The notes under the pieces were generated by a model, which searched no databases, was not told where the DNA came from, and was given only the letters and a program-made list of their open reading frames with translations. Positions 19,963 through 63,308 of a stretch of DNA of 64,000 bases are shown here, in pieces (the first letter of the stretch is position 1; each line of letters begins with the position of its first letter). Origin of the DNA: Candidatus Doudnabacteria bacterium (lineage in GTDB: Bacteria; Patescibacteriota; Doudnabacteria; UBA920); NCBI GenBank assembly GCA_963768175.1, contig CAVYGQ010000001.1:318305-382304 (forward strand). Direction: 5' to 3'. Position numbers and translations under genes: made by a program.

Positions 19963-21738
19963 ATGCCAAACGACATCCCCGCCAAAGGCGGAAAAACATT
20001 TTTTAAATCTTTGCTCTCCGGCAAAAAAAAGTATATGGTCTTAATTGTTTTGCTTATTGCCGGCTATTTTATTTATAAGCACTATTCGGGCTCCGGCGCC
20101 CCCACGCGCTATGTTTTAGGCCAGGCCAGCACACAAACTATTGTCACTTCCGTTTCCGGGACCGGACAGGTCTCGCAAAACAGGACGGTTAACATAACCG
20201 CGCCAAGTTCCGGCAAACTTACGGCTATAAGCGTAATACAGGGCCAGCAAATTAAAGCCGGACAAACCATAGCAATAGTAGATGAAACCAACAACACCAT
20301 TGCGCTAAACCAGGCTAAGGCATCCCTTGCCAGCGCCCAAGCCAGTTACGACCAGGTTATGGCCGGAGCCACCAGCCAAAGCATCCAGCTGTCCCAGCTT
20401 ACCGTGCAGTCCGACCAGCAGGCTTTGGATAATGCCAGTACCAGTTTGGCAACCGTAATCAAACAACAAGACCAGGCCGTGGCCAACGCGCTAAGCGCCT
20501 ACTTAAACGCGGGATTACAGGCCGTTCCGAGTTCCGGCAACAACAGCAACGGAACCATCGCCATTTCAGGAACCTATACCGGCACCGACCAGGGCGCATA
20601 TACCATTACCACCTACAACACCGGCGGGGGATTGGAATACGTAGTCAGCGGGCTGGAAACGGCCAGCGGGCCCATAAACAAAGTCTCGCCCATAGCTTTG
20701 GGAACCAAAGTCCTGTTTATGCAATTTACCGGAAATTTTTTGAACAACGACAGCTGGACGGTCTCTATCCCAAACTTATTGGCCTCAAGCTACAGCTCCG
20801 CTTATAACGCTTACCAAAATGCCTTAACCAGCCAGACCTCGGCGGAAGCCACCGCCCAAAACCAGGTACAAAGCGCCCAGAACAAACTACAGCAGGACCA
20901 AATAAACCTAAGTGTCCTTGAGGAGCCGCCCACCAACCAGCAGGTAGAAAGCGCCCAAGCTTCTTTGACGCAGGCCCAAGCCCAGCTGCAAAACGCGCAA
21001 ATCGCCTACCAAAATAATATTTTAAGTTCTCCTTTTGACGGCCAAGTCGCGCAGTTAAACAACCAGGTCGGCGACCAGGTTACCGCCTCCACAATTATCG
21101 CGGTGGTGGTCAGCCCGCAGTCGTTGGCCGTAATACCGCTTAACGAAGTGGACGTGGCAAAAGTTAAACTCAGCGATAAAGCCACTATGACTTTTGATGC
21201 CGTGAACGGCCTGACCATTACCGGCACCGTGGTGGAAATTGACAACATCGGCACGGTCAGCCAGGGAGTGGTAAACTATAACGTAAAAATTGCTTTTGAC
21301 ACCGAAGATCCGCGCGTTAAACCGGGTATGAGCGTAAATGTTTCTGTCATTACCGATATCCAAGCCGACGTTTTGGCCGTGCCCAACTCGGCCATCCAGA
21401 CCCAAGGAACCCAAAACTATGTGCAAATTTTGGATCCGACCAAAACCCAAAGTACTACGGGCGTAACCGGCGTAACCTCATCTGTGATACCGACTAATGT
21501 AGTCGTGCAAACCGGCGCCTCCGACGACACCTACACGCAAATTACCAGCGGCAGCCTGAAAGCCGGCGATACCGTGGTCACGCAAACCATTGCGACCACC
21601 GCGACTAAATCCGCGGCCTCCACGGCAACCAGCGCTTTAAGGCTCGGCGGTGGCGGAGGATTCGGCGGCGGAGGCGGAGCCGCGGTCATAAGAACAACCA
21701 CGGGCGGCAGCGCAGCTCCAGCAGCGGCGGGAAGATAG
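19963..21738 (+). CDS. Efflux periplasmic adaptor (HlyD/MacA family) with Gly-rich C-terminus
   Basis: N-terminal TM, long coiled-coil (QAKASLASAQASYDQ..., LTQAQAQLQNAQIAY), and biotinyl-lipoyl-like and beta-barrel segments typical of membrane fusion proteins. Confidence 0.7.
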   Translation: MPNDIPAKGGKTFFKSLLSGKKKYMVLIVLLIAGYFIYKHYSGSGAPTRYVLGQASTQTIVTSVSGTGQVSQNRTVNITAPSSGKLTAISVIQGQQIKAGQTIAIVDETNNTIALNQAKASLASAQASYDQVMAGATSQSIQLSQLTVQSDQQALDNASTSLATVIKQQDQAVANALSAYLNAGLQAVPSSGNNSNGTIAISGTYTGTDQGAYTITTYNTGGGLEYVVSGLETASGPINKVSPIALGTKVLFMQFTGNFLNNDSWTVSIPNLLASSYSSAYNAYQNALTSQTSAEATAQNQVQSAQNKLQQDQINLSVLEEPPTNQQVESAQASLTQAQAQLQNAQIAYQNNILSSPFDGQVAQLNNQVGDQVTASTIIAVVVSPQSLAVIPLNEVDVAKVKLSDKATMTFDAVNGLTITGTVVEIDNIGTVSQGVVNYNVKIAFDTEDPRVKPGMSVNVSVITDIQADVLAVPNSAIQTQGTQNYVQILDPTKTQSTTGVTGVTSSVIPTNVVVQTGASDDTYTQITSGSLKAGDTVVTQTIATTATKSAASTATSALRLGGGGGFGGGGGAAVIRTTTGGSAAPAAAGR

Positions 21739-28197: not shown

Positions 28198-29478
28198 TTA
28201 CGTTCCTTCCTGCCAACTCGCCAAATACTTTTTTTGCGCAGGGGTTAAAACGTCAATTTTAACCCCAATTGATTTCAGCTTTAATTTGGAAACACGCTCA
28301 TCAATTTCGGCAGGTACATCATAAACTTGATTTTGAAGCTCCTGATAATGTTTAACCAGCCAGTCACAAGTTAGCGCTTGGTCGGCAAACGACATATCCA
28401 TAACGGCGGAAGGATGCCCTTCGGCCGCGGCCAGGTTCATGAGGCGGCCTTCAGCGATGAGGAAAAGTTTGCGCCCGTCTTTCATAGTATACTCCATCAA
28501 GCTATCCCTGACCTGCTTCATGCTTTTTGCTTCATGCTTCATGTCCTTCACATTTATTTCCACGTTAAAATGCCCGCTGTTGCCCAAAATCGCCCCATCT
28601 TTCATCAATTTAAAATGTTGCTTGGTAAGAACGTCTTTATCTCCGGTAGCGGTCAAAAATATATCGCCAATTTTTGCCGCCTTGGGCATTGGCATAACAT
28701 CAAAACCGTCCATGGCGGCCTGAAGCGCCGGCAGGGGATCTACCTCTGTGACAATCACGCGCGCGCCCAAACCCTTAGCCCTAAGTGCCATGCCCTTGCC
28801 GCAGTAACCGTAGCCGGCCACAACCAAAATTTTTCCGGCCAAAAGGATGTTGGTGGCGCGGAGCAAACCGTCCATAGTGCTCTGGCCGGTGCCATAATAA
28901 TTATCAAACATGTGCTTGGTCGGGGTGTCGTTTATGGCCACAACCGGATATTTTAACGCGCCGTCTTTGGCCATGGCCTTTAGCCGGATTATGCCGGTAG
29001 TGGTTTCTTCCTGGCCGGCCCAGACGGTTTTTAAAAGCTCGCTTCGTCCGGAATGGATAAGCGATATCAAGTCCGCGCCGTCGTCTATGGTAATCTGCGG
29101 TTTAAAATCCAAAACTTTATTTAGCGCCCAATAATAATCTTTCTTGGAAATATGCTTCCAGGCAAAAACGTTAATGTTCAGCTCCGCCAAAGCCGCGGCT
29201 ACGTCATCCTGCGTAGACAGGGGATTAGAGGCGCACAAGGCCATTTTTGCCCCGCCCGCCGCCAAAGCCTTCATTAGCACCGCGGTCTCTTTGGTCACGT
29301 GGAGACACGCCGCTATGGTTATGCCTTCAAAAGGCCGCCGCTTTTTTCCGCCAGAGGCGGATCCGCCTTTGGCGGAGAAATCTTCCGCGATAATCCGCAA
29401 AACCGGCATTTCCCGCTCGGCCAAAGCAATATTAATATGCCCTTGCTTGGCCAGTTTAATGTCTTTTACTTTGTGCAT
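28198..29478 (-). CDS. ahcY: Adenosylhomocysteinase
   Basis: NAD-binding GYGxxGKG (VVAGYGYCGKGMA), conserved LHVTKETAVL and HFNVEI blocks, and length 426 aa. Contains an in-frame GGSASGG palindromic insertion. Confidence 0.85.
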   Translation of the reverse strand: MHKVKDIKLAKQGHINIALAEREMPVLRIIAEDFSAKGGSASGGKKRRPFEGITIAACLHVTKETAVLMKALAAGGAKMALCASNPLSTQDDVAAALAELNINVFAWKHISKKDYYWALNKVLDFKPQITIDDGADLISLIHSGRSELLKTVWAGQEETTTGIIRLKAMAKDGALKYPVVAINDTPTKHMFDNYYGTGQSTMDGLLRATNILLAGKILVVAGYGYCGKGMALRAKGLGARVIVTEVDPLPALQAAMDGFDVMPMPKAAKIGDIFLTATGDKDVLTKQHFKLMKDGAILGNSGHFNVEINVKDMKHEAKSMKQVRDSLMEYTMKDGRKLFLIAEGRLMNLAAAEGHPSAVMDMSFADQALTCDWLVKHYQELQNQVYDVPAEIDERVSKLKLKSIGVKIDVLTPAQKKYLASWQEGT

Positions 29479-49954: not shown

Positions 49955-50935
49955 TTATCCCAGACGACTTCCAATAAATTGCGGATAGCCGTTTAAAAAG
50001 TCGCCGATGGCAACTTCCGATTTCCCCTCAAGCTGAAGTTGTTTAATTTGCAAAAAAGTATTACTGCCGCAAACCGCCACTCCGTTTTCAAGCACTGTGC
50101 CCGGCATTCGTGTCATTCGTGTGCTATTCGTGTCATTCGTGTCGCTTAAAATACAATCGGTAATCTTTAAAATTTTACCGTTCCAAGTTGTCCAAATTCC
50201 AGGCCAAATATAAAAAGCGCGAAATTGATTATAAATTTCCGGAGATGTGCGCTGCCAATCAACTTTGCCGTCGGCTTTACTGATTATTTTGGTATAAGAA
50301 GCTTTGACTTCATCCTGGGGCAGGGGAGTAATTTTGCCGCTGGCATAATCCTCAACAACCCGATTAATCAACCGGGCGGACAGTCTGGCTAGCTTGTCGG
50401 ACAAAGTGAAATAGTTATCATCGGGATCAATTCCAACTATTTCCTGTGCCAGCAGCGGGCCGCCATCAATTTTTTGGTCCAACAAAAATATAGACGTGCC
50501 GGTTTGCTGGTCGCCATTAAGCAAAGCAAACTGGATGGGCGAAGGGCCACGATACTTTGGCAAAATTGAAAAGTGGACGTTAATCGTTTTGTATCGAGGC
50601 AGGCCGATAATTTCCGCCGGCAAAATTTTGCCGTAAGCCACCACTACAAAAATATCCGCGTTTAAATTTTGCAGCTGCCGTAAAAATTCCGGATTCTCCT
50701 TCAAATTTTCCGGCTTTAAAACAAACAGCTTTAAATCTTTTGCCAAAGCCGAAACCGGGCTTTCCTGCAAGTCCTGCGACCTTCCCGCTTCAGCGTCCGG
50801 CTTGGTAACCACAGCTAAAATTTTGTGCTGTTTATTTAAAGTTTCCAATACCGGCAAAGCTTCGTTAGCCGTGCCAAAAAATACAATTTTTCCGCCAAAG
50901 GCGGACCCGCCTCCGGCGGGCATTTTCTCATTCAT
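49955..50935 (-). CDS. fmt: Methionyl-tRNA formyltransferase
   Basis: N-terminal KIVFFGT, formyltransferase core (HFSILPKYRGPSPIQ), and C-terminal domain. Carries a GGSAFGG palindromic element at the 5' end and an in-frame tandem repeat. Confidence 0.85.
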   Translation of the reverse strand: MNEKMPAGGGSAFGGKIVFFGTANEALPVLETLNKQHKILAVVTKPDAEAGRSQDLQESPVSALAKDLKLFVLKPENLKENPEFLRQLQNLNADIFVVVAYGKILPAEIIGLPRYKTINVHFSILPKYRGPSPIQFALLNGDQQTGTSIFLLDQKIDGGPLLAQEIVGIDPDDNYFTLSDKLARLSARLINRVVEDYASGKITPLPQDEVKASYTKIISKADGKVDWQRTSPEIYNQFRAFYIWPGIWTTWNGKILKITDCILSDTNDTNSTRMTRMPGTVLENGVAVCGSNTFLQIKQLQLEGKSEVAIGDFLNGYPQFIGSRLG

Positions 50936-51498
50936 AATTTCCTCATTACTTTTCTTAAAACTTCCGCCTCCAACCGACAGTCAACCAAAGCGTTGTGCAA
51001 CTGGTTTTTACCGATTTTTATTTTAAATATTTTAATTAAATACTCCAGCCCAAAACCGGCAAAGTCTTTTTTGGAATTAAGCTTGTTGCGTTTGGCCAAA
51101 AAGCCGTAAAATAGAGCCCACAAATCAAAATAATGGTAGTCAAACGGCCACTTAACTCCAGCTTTTTTATAAGCATCCGTTAAAATCCGTTTGTCGTTAA
51201 AACCCACATAAAAAGCCTGGGTTACGTTGTGGGGAAACGCGCGGTTGAACTTTTTTATCGCCTGGCTCAAAGTCGGCGCGTCTTTGACCATTTCCCAGGT
51301 AATTTTATTCACCGCCATGGACTTAAGGTCGCGGCTTTTCCACTTGGACGGTTTGACGTAAGTGCTAAAATATTTTTTTTCTTTTAAAGTTTTTTTGTCC
51401 AAAAGCACCGCGGCGATTTGCAGCAAATCGTGCTTTTTGGGAACATCAAAACCGGAAAACTCGGTATCAATTAGCAGTAAATCCTTGTGAAAGTTCAT
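50932..51498 (-). CDS. DEDDh 3'-5' exonuclease (DnaQ-like)
   Basis: Exo I LLIDTEFSGFD, Exo II FNDKRILTD, Exo III HNALVDC. Confidence 0.65.
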   Translation of the reverse strand: MNFHKDLLLIDTEFSGFDVPKKHDLLQIAAVLLDKKTLKEKKYFSTYVKPSKWKSRDLKSMAVNKITWEMVKDAPTLSQAIKKFNRAFPHNVTQAFYVGFNDKRILTDAYKKAGVKWPFDYHYFDLWALFYGFLAKRNKLNSKKDFAGFGLEYLIKIFKIKIGKNQLHNALVDCRLEAEVLRKVMRKL

Positions 51499-51566
51499 AG
51501 ATAGTGGATAGTGGTCAGTGGATAGTGGTCAGTCCTGTCCACTGATCACTGTACACTGTCCACTTT

Positions 51567-61934: not shown

Positions 61935-63308
61935 ATGAAATACGCTTTTATTTTAGGGAGGGTTTATACTTTATCGGTGGCCGAACTTTTGGCTGTTTTG
62001 GAAAAAACAGACGCCTCTTTAGGCTTAACGGGTGAACCTGTGCAAATTTTGGAAGCCTCGGAAGAAGTTTTAATCGTAGAAACCGGAAAACCCCTTAACG
62101 TGGAAAGGCTGCAAAAAAAGCTCGGCGGGGTAATTAAGATTCTTGAGGTAGTTGATGTGATAAAAAAACGCGAACGGGATTCCATTAATTTTGCCCTAAA
62201 ACATTATTTTAAGCCCGGCATCCTTAAAAAACAGTTTTTTAAGGACTACAAAGGCAAAGTGCAGTTCGGCCTGAGCATTTATATTTTAGATATGGATCTG
62301 CTTAAACGCCCCGGGCCGAATCCGAGGGACAAAAACCAAGGAGTTTTTTCCGCCGGAGGCGGATCCGCCTTCGGCGGAAATTCTGTTTTTAGCGAGCCCA
62401 AAAGAGTAGGCATGATGATAAAAAACGGGCTTACCGAAAGCGGCGCCAGCGTCAGGCTGGTCTTGCCCGAATACAATTCCCTATCGCTGGCTTCGGTAGT
62501 GGTAACAAAAAATTTGCTTCTGCAAAAAGGCGCGGAGATTTGCATCTTGGCCGCCAAAGACAATATTTTTACGGCTAAAACTTTAACAGTGCAGGACTTT
62601 GAAGATTACGGCCGCAGGGATTATCAACGGCCTGCCAGGGACGAGAAACAAGGCATGATCCCCCCAAAAGTGGCGCAAATTATGCTTAACCTCTCGGGCT
62701 GCAAATCCGGGGACAGCATTTTAGACCCGTTCTGCGGCGTCGGCACAATTATCCAGGAAGGCTTGTTGCTTGGCTTCCGCATGATTGGCAGCGATATAAA
62801 TAAGCAGGCCATAAAAGGCAGCGAACAAAATTTGGAATGGTTCAGAAACCGCTACAAAATCGCTCCGGGAAAATACGGAGTGGAGGTTTCCAACGCCGCC
62901 AAGGTCGCCGATTTGATAGATAAATCCAAAAGCCAAATTTCCGCCATTGTCACCGAAGGCACCCTGGGGCCAATATACGGCCAATACCCCAAAGCCGACG
63001 AGATTGCCAAAAATTTTAAGGACCTGGAAAAACTTTATAAAGCCAGTTTTAAAGAATTTGCCAAATTTCTCCCCAAACAAGCCAAAATTGTCATGTGCCT
63101 GCCGGCTTACCGGAAAAGCCGCGACCAATACGAAATGTTCCCCAGCCTTGACTTCGCCCAAGCTTTAGGATATAATTTAGTGGATATTATTTCCCCATCT
63201 GTTGTAAAAAAACTTAAATTCCTCAAACTGACGACCAGAAACACGGCTATTTATGATCGCAAAGATCAGATTGTTGCGAGAGAGATAGTAATCTTTGAAA
63301 AAATATAA
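61935..63308 (+). CDS. THUMP-domain class I SAM-dependent RNA methyltransferase (Trm11/RlmL-like)
   Basis: Trimmed to MKYAF at 61935. Motif I ILDPFCGVGTIIQEG and acidic motif II MIGSDIN. Carries a GGSAFGG palindromic element in-frame. Confidence 0.5.
   Translation: MKYAFILGRVYTLSVAELLAVLEKTDASLGLTGEPVQILEASEEVLIVETGKPLNVERLQKKLGGVIKILEVVDVIKKRERDSINFALKHYFKPGILKKQFFKDYKGKVQFGLSIYILDMDLLKRPGPNPRDKNQGVFSAGGGSAFGGNSVFSEPKRVGMMIKNGLTESGASVRLVLPEYNSLSLASVVVTKNLLLQKGAEICILAAKDNIFTAKTLTVQDFEDYGRRDYQRPARDEKQGMIPPKVAQIMLNLSGCKSGDSILDPFCGVGTIIQEGLLLGFRMIGSDINKQAIKGSEQNLEWFRNRYKIAPGKYGVEVSNAAKVADLIDKSKSQISAIVTEGTLGPIYGQYPKADEIAKNFKDLEKLYKASFKEFAKFLPKQAKIVMCLPAYRKSRDQYEMFPSLDFAQALGYNLVDIISPSVVKKLKFLKLTTRNTAIYDRKDQIVAREIVIFEKI

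What the first reader, a model, noticed from the sequence alone, without database searches (positions are those of the whole stretch)
50893..50931. Copy 2 of the GGSAFGG palindromic element forms the 5' end of fmt
The minus-strand coding sequence reads atg ccc gcc gga ggc ggg tcc gcc ttt ggc gga aaa att gta ttt ttt, translating to MPAGGGSAFGGKIVFFGT. The element sits immediately before the canonical Fmt N-terminus KIVFFGT. The palindrome therefore either donated or lies on the start codon and ribosome-binding region of an essential gene. It is also a stable GC hairpin at a translation start, which could modulate initiation.
Basis: seen in the sequence. Interest (0 to 1): 0.6.

Follow-up and report, generated by a model that had tools for sequence, protein, structure and literature searches.

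The report
Palindromic insert translated at fmt's start
A 30-base GC-rich double-hairpin element, found in many genes and many bacterial phyla, sits directly after the original start codon of the essential fmt gene, is translated as a floppy 10-residue tail, and has probably pushed translation initiation 12 bases upstream.

Summary
Window 50891-50920 (minus strand) is two tandem 15-nt hairpin units, CCCGCC-gga-GGCGGG and TCCGCC-ttt-GGCGGA. They lie between an ATG (50921-50923) and the conserved Fmt N-terminus KIVFFGT.

About 90% of the 120 closest Fmt orthologues start MKIVFFGT. Removing the 30 nt restores ATG-AAA-ATT-GTA, so the element was inserted after the ancestral start codon and did not donate it. 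It must be translated. There is no canonical in-frame start before codon 27, and the frame stays open in every filled orthologue.

All 8 filled loci I read carry a second in-frame ATG 12 nt upstream (50933-50935). In the window this ATG overlaps the stop of the upstream gene. Opening the ribosome site costs about 4 kcal/mol there and about 18 at the ancestral ATG, so initiation has probably moved upstream.

The element belongs to a dispersed family:
- It is exactly 30 bp, leaves no target duplication, and inserts at TTY^AAA-like sites.
- Inside long ORFs it is almost always in the Ser-Ala-x-Gly-Gly frame.
- It occurs in Patescibacteria, Omnitrophota, PVC phyla, Ignavibacteria and others.

The stems are held constant or change by compensatory substitution. 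I found no published description. How the element moves is unknown.

The parts
50891..50920 (-). The 30-bp double-hairpin element, copy 2. The mRNA-5' unit is CCCGCC-gga-GGCGGG (50906-50920) and the mRNA-3' unit is TCCGCC-ttt-GGCGGA (50891-50905). It encodes PAGGGSAFGG, residues 6-15 of the long ORF.
   Evidence: sequence and enrichment. (fold). (absent from most orthologues; removing it restores ATG AAA ATT GTA).
50921..50923 (-). ATG2, the ancestral fmt start codon. It now directly abuts the hairpin.
   Evidence: In 11 of 12 empty loci an ATG directly precedes K/R-I-V-F-F. Opening energy here is 18.2 kcal/mol with the element and 5.5 without it.
50933..50935 (-). ATG1, the in-frame upstream start. 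It is probably the functional start in element-bearing alleles. It overlaps the TGA stop (50932-50934) of the upstream exonuclease gene as ATGA.
   Evidence: overlap. (present 12 nt upstream of ATG2 in 7 filled loci; in L152 it is the only ATG left). (opening energy 4.3 kcal/mol). (no empty locus has an ATG 4 codons upstream of its start; L131 has one 3 codons upstream).
50940..50944 (-). GAGGA, a Shine-Dalgarno-like motif 4 nt upstream of ATG1.
   Evidence: Read from the sequence. Its function is inferred.
49955..50935 (-). The fmt coding sequence (methionyl-tRNA formyltransferase), 326 aa counted from ATG1.
   Evidence: Pfam Formyl_trans_N (residues 16-193) and Formyl_trans_C. Solved Fmt chains align from residue 16. 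AlphaFold2 mean pLDDT 92; residues 1-15 have no secondary structure and residues 4-10 have pLDDT below 50.
50932..51498 (-). The upstream RNase_T-family exonuclease gene. Its stop codon overlaps ATG1.
29347..29376 (-). Copy 1 of the element, in frame in ahcY (SAKGGSASGG), between conserved F and KK.
   Evidence: Empty and filled orthologues at protein and DNA level.
62349..62378 (+). Copy 3 of the element, in frame (SAGGGSAFGG) in an RMKL-like/N6_N4 methyltransferase ORF.
19978..19992 (+). A single 15-nt unit, CCCGCC-aaa-GGCGGA, in frame (PAKGG) at the 5' end of the HlyD-like ORF 19963-21738.

Best explanation
Copy 2 is a member of a dispersed family of 30-bp GC-rich elements. Each is two tandem 15-nt hairpin units, (T/C)CCGCC-N3-GGCGG(A/G) twice. 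They insert into A/T-rich TTY^AAR-like sites without duplicating the target.

In an ancestor of this Patescibacteria (CPR) lineage, one copy landed between the fmt start codon and codon 2 (ATG^AAA). It survives because it reads in the one benign frame, (S/P)-A-x-G-G twice. That gives a disordered 10-residue Gly/Ser/Ala stretch ahead of strand beta-1.

The hairpin buries the ancestral ATG. Element-bearing alleles therefore start at an in-frame ATG 12 nt upstream, which puts the hairpin at +16 to +45, at or just beyond the edge of the ribosome's initiation footprint. In the window this ATG is served by GAGGA and overlaps the upstream gene's stop codon (ATGA), which would allow translational coupling.

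Shown here: the insertion, its exact boundaries, its family membership, the frame bias, the nucleotide-level conservation and covariation of the stems, and the disordered prediction.

Inferred: use of ATG1, any throttling of fmt translation, and the way the element moves. For movement my best guess is a trans-acting enzyme that recognises hairpins or palindromes and both inserts and removes the element cleanly. This is unproven.
For: Insertion and boundaries:
- 108 of the 120 closest Fmt proteins lack the insert, and nearly all of them start M(K/R/N)I(V/I)FFG. The closest, P0002 at 81% identity, is one of these. Twelve carry a 10-residue insert after an M.
- DNA of 12 empty loci shows ATG directly before AAA/AGA-ATT-GTA in 11.

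The family inserts exactly 30 bp with no duplication:
- ahcY empties read GAA TTT|AAA AAA. The window reads GAT TTC[30 bp]AAA AAG.
- A second, independent insertion in L022 reads CCG TTT[30 bp]AAA AAT.
- Flank logo over 135 copies: T at -2 in 77%, A at +1 in 70%, A at +2 in 82%.

Family and frame:
- A pattern scan of species-representative genomes hit its 120-locus limit, across many phyla.
- In ORFs of 250 aa or more, 51 of 60 copies are in the SAxGG frame (p = 2e-16). In ORFs under 120 aa the three phases are 12/16/14.

The element is translated:
- The frame is open in all 8 filled loci I read.
- There is no downstream canonical start before codon 27.

Start shift:
- The motif ATGA-N8-ATG is present in 7 of 8 filled loci. 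In L152 only the upstream ATG remains.
- Opening energy of -18..+13 is 4.3 kcal/mol at ATG1 and 18.2 at ATG2. L003, L153, L148 and L150 show the same pattern.

Stem constraint:
- No differences at the 8 four-fold-degenerate stem sites between window, L003 and L153. Elsewhere in fmt, 58-69% of four-fold sites differ.
- More distant orthologues keep the pairing with different stems. 92.7% of cells are paired, against 77.5 +/- 3.1 when shuffled (0 of 500 shuffles reach it). The covariation score is 0.435 against 0.199. Slid controls are at most 0.07.

Protein:
- AlphaFold2 mean pLDDT is 92; residues 1-15 have no secondary structure.
Against: - No transposase or other mobilising enzyme was identified, and no population with both filled and empty alleles was examined. 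Current mobility is therefore not shown.
- The filled fmt alleles share a 45-nt module (ATGA-N8-ATG plus the element), which suggests a single origin. Yet they are scattered over a rough NJ tree of Fmt. That needs many losses, recombination or tree error, and I could not tell which.
- Covariation of the stems in genomes where I found no other copies in 21 kb (L154, L155) fits a selected hairpin better than a purely selfish passenger.
- The cross-phylum set was found with a perfect-stem pattern. It therefore cannot itself show stem conservation.
- Use of ATG1 rests on folding energies and co-occurrence only.
Confidence: 0.7

Rival explanations
1. The hairpin is an exapted, selected cis-acting RNA structure in the def-exo-exo-fmt transcript. 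It might be a translational attenuator of fmt or a processing or stability barrier at the exo/fmt junction. Its origin as an inserted element would then be secondary.
For: - Stems are invariant at saturated synonymous sites.
- Stems change by compensation in distant orthologues, and hairpin 2 is 100% paired in 8 of 8.
- All four wobble cells are U.G on the mRNA strand. They would be A.C on the other strand.
- The hairpin persists in genomes where I found no other copies in 21 kb.
- Six of 12 empty relatives carry unrelated long inverted repeats in the same exo-fmt junction.
- The hairpin changes accessibility of the start by about 13 kcal/mol.
Against: - About 90% of orthologues, including the closest, do without it.
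- The same 30-mer sits in unrelated genes and in non-coding DNA across phyla, so nothing about it is specific to fmt.
- Four U.G against zero A.C is only p of about 0.06.
- Covariation could also arise from gene conversion or reinsertion by variant family members. Such variants exist, for example at L001:5690.
- No Rfam family matches.
Confidence: 0.3
2. The element is a 5'-UTR hairpin and Fmt starts downstream of it.
For: Most orthologues are 306-313 aa and start at the residue equivalent to position 15-16. An ATT codon (I17) follows the element and could in principle act as a rare start.
Against: - The codon before K16 is GGA, not ATG.
- The next canonical start is TTG at codon 27, past the invariant F19 F20 G21 and the first beta-strand.
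- The reading frame through the element is intact in all 8 filled loci despite sequence change.
- Inside long ORFs the family is frame-locked. That is expected only if the element is translated.
Confidence: 0.04
3. GGSAFGG is a protein-level motif, a glycine-rich linker that arose or is kept for its peptide. The DNA palindrome would be incidental.
For: - Loop codons in coding copies favour K/E/G/Q and S over F, which shows some protein-level filtering.
- The peptide is predicted to be flexible.
Against: - Unrelated genes share 28 to 30 of 30 nucleotides.
- Third-codon positions in the stems are fixed.
- Copies occur in short-ORF, probably non-coding, DNA in all three phases.
- Amino-acid changes in orthologues follow base-pairing rules (A..G, R..A, P..G, G..A), not residue similarity.
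Confidence: 0.03
4. It is an assembly or sequencing artefact, or a chance low-complexity match.
For: All carriers are metagenome-assembled or single-cell genomes. The only isolate hit (Nocardioides, 3 mismatches in a high-GC genome) looks like chance.
Against: - The same insertion is seen in independent assemblies made with different assemblers and by different groups.
- The copies are frame-locked.
- Host genes are otherwise intact.
- The chance expectation is about 0.
Confidence: 0.01

Closest known systems
Rickettsia palindromic elements (RPEs)
   Same: Selfish-looking palindromic repeats inserted in frame into housekeeping genes that stay functional, as well as into non-coding DNA (summarised in PMC3733652 and PMC10969869).
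   Different: By my recollection RPEs are roughly 100-150 bp, unrelated in sequence and confined to Rickettsia. This element is 30 bp, is built from two triloop hairpins, is locked to one frame, has a defined TTY^AAA target with no duplication, and is shared by many phyla.
REP/BIME elements mobilised by RAYT tyrosine (HUH) transposases
   Same: They are 20-40 bp GC-rich palindromes, often paired, sometimes found inside genes, and proposed to act as RNA hairpins (PMC3733652).
   Different: The element has no GTAG or CGTC tag. It is mainly intragenic in CPR genomes. No RAYT was seen in the DNA I examined. True GTAG...CTAC palindromes do occur in relatives (L124, L128), but they are a different element.
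IS200/IS605-type hairpin transposition and its non-autonomous derivatives (PATEs)
   Same: No target duplication, hairpin ends and sequence-specific target choice. By my recollection this family also excises seamlessly, which would explain patchy presence at identical sites.
   Different: By my recollection those elements need guide and cleavage sequences outside the hairpins and insert 3' of an asymmetric 4-5 nt target. Here the target preference is symmetric (TT^AA), and the element consists of nothing but the two hairpins. No TnpA was identified.
GC clusters of yeast mitochondria and mitochondrial 'byp' elements (from my own knowledge)
   Same: Short GC-rich palindromes spreading in an AT-rich genome, some of them inside coding sequences.
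   Different: These are organellar and unrelated in sequence. Byps are skipped by the ribosome, whereas the frame bias here shows the element is read through.
HIP1 (GCGATCGC) of cyanobacteria and uptake signal sequences (from my own knowledge)
   Same: Short palindromic or oriented motifs over-represented in genomes and found in preferred reading frames inside genes.
   Different: Those are 8-12 nt motifs at a density of about one per kilobase, and they arise by substitution rather than as discrete insertions. Here clear filled and empty alleles differ by exactly 30 bp.

Membership tests
Methionyl-tRNA formyltransferase (the host gene) | Formyl_trans_N plus Formyl_trans_C domains, with homology to solved Fmt structures | tested here: met
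   Pfam E = 7e-38 and 2.3e-21. PDB Fmt chains match with E down to 3e-53, aligned from residue 16.
Rickettsia palindromic elements | In-frame insertion into functional ORFs | tested here: met
   fmt, ahcY and a methyltransferase in the window. Other loci carry it in proteins I recognised by eye (not tested) as a PheT-like, an aminoacyl-tRNA-synthetase-like and a UvrC-like N-terminus.
Rickettsia palindromic elements | Length of about 100-150 bp and sequence similarity to RPE families; Rickettsia host | tested here: not met
   The element is exactly 30 bp. The hosts are Patescibacteria and other environmental phyla.
REP / REPIN (RAYT-associated) | A short GC-rich imperfect palindrome of 20-40 bp, often in pairs | tested here: met
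   Two 15-nt hairpin units in tandem.
REP / REPIN (RAYT-associated) | A conserved GTAG (or CGTC) tetranucleotide at one end | tested here: not met
   The ends are (T/C)CCGCC and GGCGG(A/G), and the flanks are host TTY/AAA.
REP / REPIN (RAYT-associated) | A cognate RAYT gene in the genome | not tested
   All-against-all clustering of ORFs of at least 90 aa from the 120 element loci gave no recurring transposase-like family. Only GIY-YIG and BrnT recurred, and only a few clusters were annotated. Whole genomes could not be scanned.
MITE | Terminal inverted repeats with a target-site duplication; typically 70-300 bp | tested here: not met
   No duplication at three resolved sites. Length is 30 bp.
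IS200/IS605-derived hairpin elements | No target duplication and a sequence-specific insertion site | tested here: met
   TTY^AAA at both ahcY sites and ATG^AAA at fmt, plus the flank logo.
IS200/IS605-derived hairpin elements | Mobilisation by a Y1 HUH transposase with seamless excision | not testable with these tools
   Patchy presence at identical sites is compatible with this but does not prove it.
Intrinsic terminator | A GC-rich hairpin followed directly by a U-tract on the transcribed strand | tested here: not met
   On the fmt sense strand the hairpins are followed by AAAAAUUG. The scan flags only a weak antisense-strand match at 50906-50920.
Any curated RNA family (Rfam 15) | A covariance-model match | tested here: not met
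   No hit at the element down to E = 1.

The most novel reading that the evidence does not exclude
The 30-mer is a previously undescribed, minimal mobile element that is active across phyla. It would be a pair of triloop hairpins that a still unknown, horizontally shared enzyme inserts at TTY^AAR sites and removes cleanly. Small free-standing GIY-YIG nucleases found next to several copies are one candidate for that enzyme. The element would write a 10-residue linker into essential proteins. Its hairpins would also be selected at the RNA level, so at fmt it would act as a real translational control element that has relocated the start codon.
Probability: 0.2. Interest if true: 0.85.

Novelty: new variant of a known kind. 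Interest (0 to 1): 0.62.

Why it matters
- Annotation. Start-codon calls and protein lengths in CPR and other metagenome-derived genomes are affected by such inserts. Here the inserts make Fmt 326 aa, where most of its close orthologues are 306-313 aa, and AhcY 426 aa, where its empty orthologues are about 416 aa.
- Evolution. This is a second, much smaller and far more widespread case of the "selfish DNA inside protein-coding genes" phenomenon known from Rickettsia. The boundaries are clean, there is a target motif and a frame filter, and housekeeping proteins gain flexible Gly/Ser loops.
- Mechanism. An element with no room for anything but two hairpins, no target duplication, and the same sequence in phyla as distant as Patescibacteria, Omnitrophota and Ignavibacteria implies an unidentified shared mobilising or maintaining activity.
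- Gene expression. At fmt it offers a natural experiment on how a stable hairpin placed at +4 of a start codon is tolerated, apparently by using a start 12 nt upstream.

Tried and rejected
- Target-site duplication at fmt. I looked for direct repeats (AAAAT on both sides). They are weak and inconsistent across loci, and the ahcY sites show none.
- "TTT...AAA is part of the element". Rejected, because F and K are conserved host residues in the empty ahcY alleles.
- One long 13-15 bp hairpin as the selected form. The window copies can fold that way. However, the two loops are not complementary more often than chance, and L148 can form only two separate hairpins.
- [quoted passage not shown]. Not supported. 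The anti-correlation at the middle loop position is better explained by codon preference for K/E and S.
- A minimal transposon made of two terminal repeats of a larger autonomous element. No pairs of solitary units at transposon-like spacing were found around an ORF.
- Associated protein. All-against-all clustering of ORFs from the 120 loci gave only GIY-YIG nucleases and BrnT toxins as recurrent neighbours, and no transposase-like family. I treat this as a lead only.
- Rfam and terminator and promoter scans explain nothing on the sense strand.
- Literature. Six full-text searches found no description of this element or of its peptide or DNA strings.
- Source genome. I could not name it.
- From memory only: GGCGGA is the recognition site of the restriction enzyme EciI. 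I did not pursue this.

Full report
**1. The observation**

On the minus strand the window reads aggaaatt-ATG-aat-gag-aaa-ATG-[CCC GCC gga GGC GGG TCC GCC ttt GGC GGA]-aaa-att-gta-ttt-ttt-ggc-acg. The bracketed 30 nt (50891-50920) are two tandem 15-nt units. Each unit has a 6-bp GC stem and a 3-nt loop.

The longest ORF (49955-50935) begins MNEKMPAGGGSAFGGKIVFFGT. Its first ATG overlaps the TGA stop of the upstream RNase_T-family exonuclease gene, as ATGA. Pfam places the formyltransferase domain from residue 16.

The motif is far from chance:
- CCGCCNNNGGCGG occurs 7 times, against 0.05 expected.
- The 20-mer core hits three loci, against 0 expected.

Full copies also lie in ahcY (29347-29376, SAKGGSASGG) and in a methyltransferase ORF (62349-62378, SAGGGSAFGG). 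A single unit lies at 19978-19992. All of these are read in the same frame.

**2. It is an insertion after the ancestral start codon**

Of the 120 closest Fmt proteins, 108 lack the insert, and nearly all of those start M(K/R/N)I(V/I)FFG. This includes the closest relative, P0002, at 81% identity. Twelve, including the window, carry ten extra residues after an M. Examples are PAGGGSAFGG, PAKGGSASGG, PREAGSAFGG, SREAGSRFAG and SPYGGSPVGG.

I read the DNA of 12 empty relatives. Eleven have ATG directly before AAA/AAG/AGA-AT(T/A/C). Deleting the 30 nt from the window restores ATG-AAA-ATT-GTA. So the element did not create the start codon. It separated the start codon from codon 2.

**3. It is translated**

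After the element there is no ATG, GTG or TTG in frame until codon 27. That is beyond the invariant F19-F20-G21 and the first beta-strand. In all eight filled loci whose DNA I fetched, the frame through the element is open even where the sequence has changed.

AlphaFold2 folds the protein confidently (mean pLDDT 92). Residues 1-15 have no secondary structure, and residues 4-10 have pLDDT below 50. Solved Fmt structures align from residue 16. The insert is therefore a disordered N-terminal tail.

**4. Which ATG is used**

Seven of the eight filled loci share ATGA-N8-ATG directly before the element. In the eighth (L152) only the upstream ATG survives. None of the 12 empties has an ATG four codons upstream of its start. 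One, L131, has an ATG three codons upstream.

I computed the energy needed to make positions -18 to +13 single-stranded:

| Start site | Opening energy, kcal/mol |
|---|---|
| ATG1 (50935) | 4.3 |
| ATG2 (50923) | 18.2 |
| ATG2 with the element removed in silico | 5.5 |

L003, L153, L148 and L150 behave the same way.

A GAGGA motif lies 4 nt upstream of ATG1. I infer that initiation moved to ATG1, which places the hairpin at +16 to +45. This part is inference, not demonstration.

**5. The family**

A scan of one genome per species for CCGCCNNNGGCGGNTCCGCCNNNGGCGG stopped at its 120-locus limit. The hits come from:
- many Patescibacteria classes;
- Omnitrophota;
- Kiritimatiellae, Lentisphaerae, Verrucomicrobia and Planctomycetes;
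- Ignavibacteria and Bacteroidota;
- Chloroflexota and others.

The Ignavibacteria copies sit inside what look by eye (not tested against a domain library) like T9SS C-terminal sorting domains, so the taxonomic labels look credible.

Across 138 copies found in 918 kb:
- In ORFs of 250 aa or more, 51 of 60 are in the (S/P)AxGG-SAxGG frame (p = 2e-16).
- In ORFs under 120 aa the phases are 12/16/14.
- None of the three frames necessarily contains a stop, so this is a real filter on what is tolerated.

The common variant CCCGCC...GGCGGG, which is the form of the fmt copy's first unit, is a compensated change of the outer base pair.

**6. Boundaries and target**

ahcY gives clean empty and filled alleles:

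| Allele | Sequence at the site |
|---|---|
| ahcY empty | (D/E)F\|KK, GAA TTT\|AAA AAA |
| Window ahcY, filled | GAT TTC[30 bp]AAA AAG |
| L022 ahcY, second site six codons downstream | CCG TTT[30 bp]AAA AAT |

The L022 insertion is independent of the window's. The element is thus exactly 30 bp and leaves no duplication. The flanking F and K are host residues. The flank logo therefore reflects target preference: T at -2 in 77%, A at +1 in 70% and A at +2 in 82%. ATG^AAA at fmt fits this preference.

Presence is patchy:
- Filled ahcY alleles fall in at least four places on an NJ tree, among empties that are 85-89% identical.
- Filled fmt alleles are scattered likewise.
- Different loci assort independently. 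Judging by matching contig lengths, the genome with P0122 has a filled ahcY but an empty fmt (P0009).

**7. The stems are constrained**

Between window, L003 and L153, 58-69% of four-fold-degenerate sites in fmt differ. The eight four-fold sites inside the stem codons show no differences at all.

More distant orthologues have different but still complementary stems:
- CCCCGC/GCGGGG
- TCCCGC/GCGGGA
- TCCCCC/GGGGGA
- TCTGGC/GCCGGA

On the 8-sequence alignment, 92.7% of cells pair, against 77.5 +/- 3.1 in shuffles (0 of 500 reach it). The covariation score is 0.435 against 0.199, and slid controls are at most 0.07. Hairpin 2 is paired in every sequence. All four wobble cells are U.G on the mRNA strand.

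Two genomes with variant fmt copies showed no canonical copy in a further 21 kb each. This argues for in-place compensatory evolution there.

This keeps alive the rival reading that the hairpin is itself useful. It could act as an attenuator or as a barrier at the exo/fmt junction. Six of the 12 empty relatives carry unrelated long inverted repeats in that same junction. That may mean a hotspot or a functional need.

**8. Comparison with known systems**

The closest analogy is the Rickettsia palindromic element, which also inserts in frame into functional genes (cited in PMC3733652 and PMC10969869). The size, sequence, host range, target and frame lock are all different here.

- It resembles REPs in size and GC hairpins but lacks the GTAG or CGTC tag (PMC3733652).
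- It is not a MITE, because it has no duplication and is too short.
- It is not a terminator on the sense strand.
- It matches no Rfam family.
- The absence of a duplication and the patchy presence at identical sites recall IS200/IS605-type hairpin transposition, but no transposase was found.
- Small GIY-YIG nuclease genes lie within 200 nt of copies in four loci. A degraded one lies just upstream of the fmt element in L150. I treat this as a lead only.

Six literature searches found no description of this element. Reported gene exchange between Patescibacteria, Omnitrophota and Bacteroidota (PMC12455944) is compatible with its distribution.

**9. Verdict**

The element is coding, it abuts the start, and its hairpin matters for initiation. 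However, it neither donated the start codon nor overlies the ribosome-binding site.

The finding is a new variant of a known kind, namely in-frame palindromic insertions. Two features are of wider interest. An identical 30-mer is spread across phyla, and its stems are conserved at the nucleotide level.

The open points are how the element moves, whether it is still moving, and whether the fmt hairpin is selected for a function.

Noticed in passing
window 51499-51566: A different palindromic element of about 60 nt (gtggacagtg...ccactatccac) fills the spacer between the two RNase_T-like exonuclease genes. It gave a sub-threshold Rfam hit to mir-1537, which I take to be chance.
   Followed up: partly
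L124:1428-1485, L125:1387-1480, L126:1406-1481, L127:1405-1494, L128:570-617, L133:610-675: In six relatives that lack the 30-mer, the exonuclease-fmt spacer carries other long inverted repeats. These include GTAG...CTAC REP-like ones (L124, L128) and 'ccacagat' types (L125, L127). The junction is a hotspot for palindromes, or it needs one.
   Followed up: partly
L006:4690-5124, L039:7488-7781, L045:7230-7598, L070:323-640, L150:1549-1914: Small GIY-YIG nuclease genes (Pfam PF01541) lie within 200 nt of a copy of the element. In L150 a degraded one, with in-frame stops, sits directly upstream of the fmt element. BrnT toxin genes also recur in loci that carry the element.
   Followed up: partly
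L044:6021, L063:390, L104:2838: In three Ignavibacteria loci the element sits at the same position of what look like T9SS C-terminal sorting domains (..VQF|SAxGGSAxGG|D/N..SSGVYFY). This suggests spread with paralogues or a repeatedly used site.
   Followed up: no
L001:5690-5719: A tandem double hairpin with both stems different from the canonical ones (TCCGGC-gga-GCCGGA, CCCCGC-ttt-GCGGGG) lies just upstream of the mechanosensitive-channel gene. It shows that stem-variant family members exist.
   Followed up: no
window 19978-19992: A single 15-nt unit (PAKGG in frame) lies five codons into the HlyD-like ORF 19963-21738. A second possible start (M at codon 25) lies downstream, so this unit may be coding or may be 5' leader.
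   Followed up: no
L032:3666-3732: Two copies lie 37 nt apart inside one 720-aa ORF of an Omnitrophota contig. They are therefore in different phases, which is an exception to the frame rule.
   Followed up: no
P0047, P0052, P0067 (Fmt orthologues): Their N-termini, MNKKIVFFGT and MSEKIVFFGT, are what a 36-nt deletion between the AAAAT repeats flanking ATG2 plus the element would leave. They may be scars of element loss.
   Followed up: no
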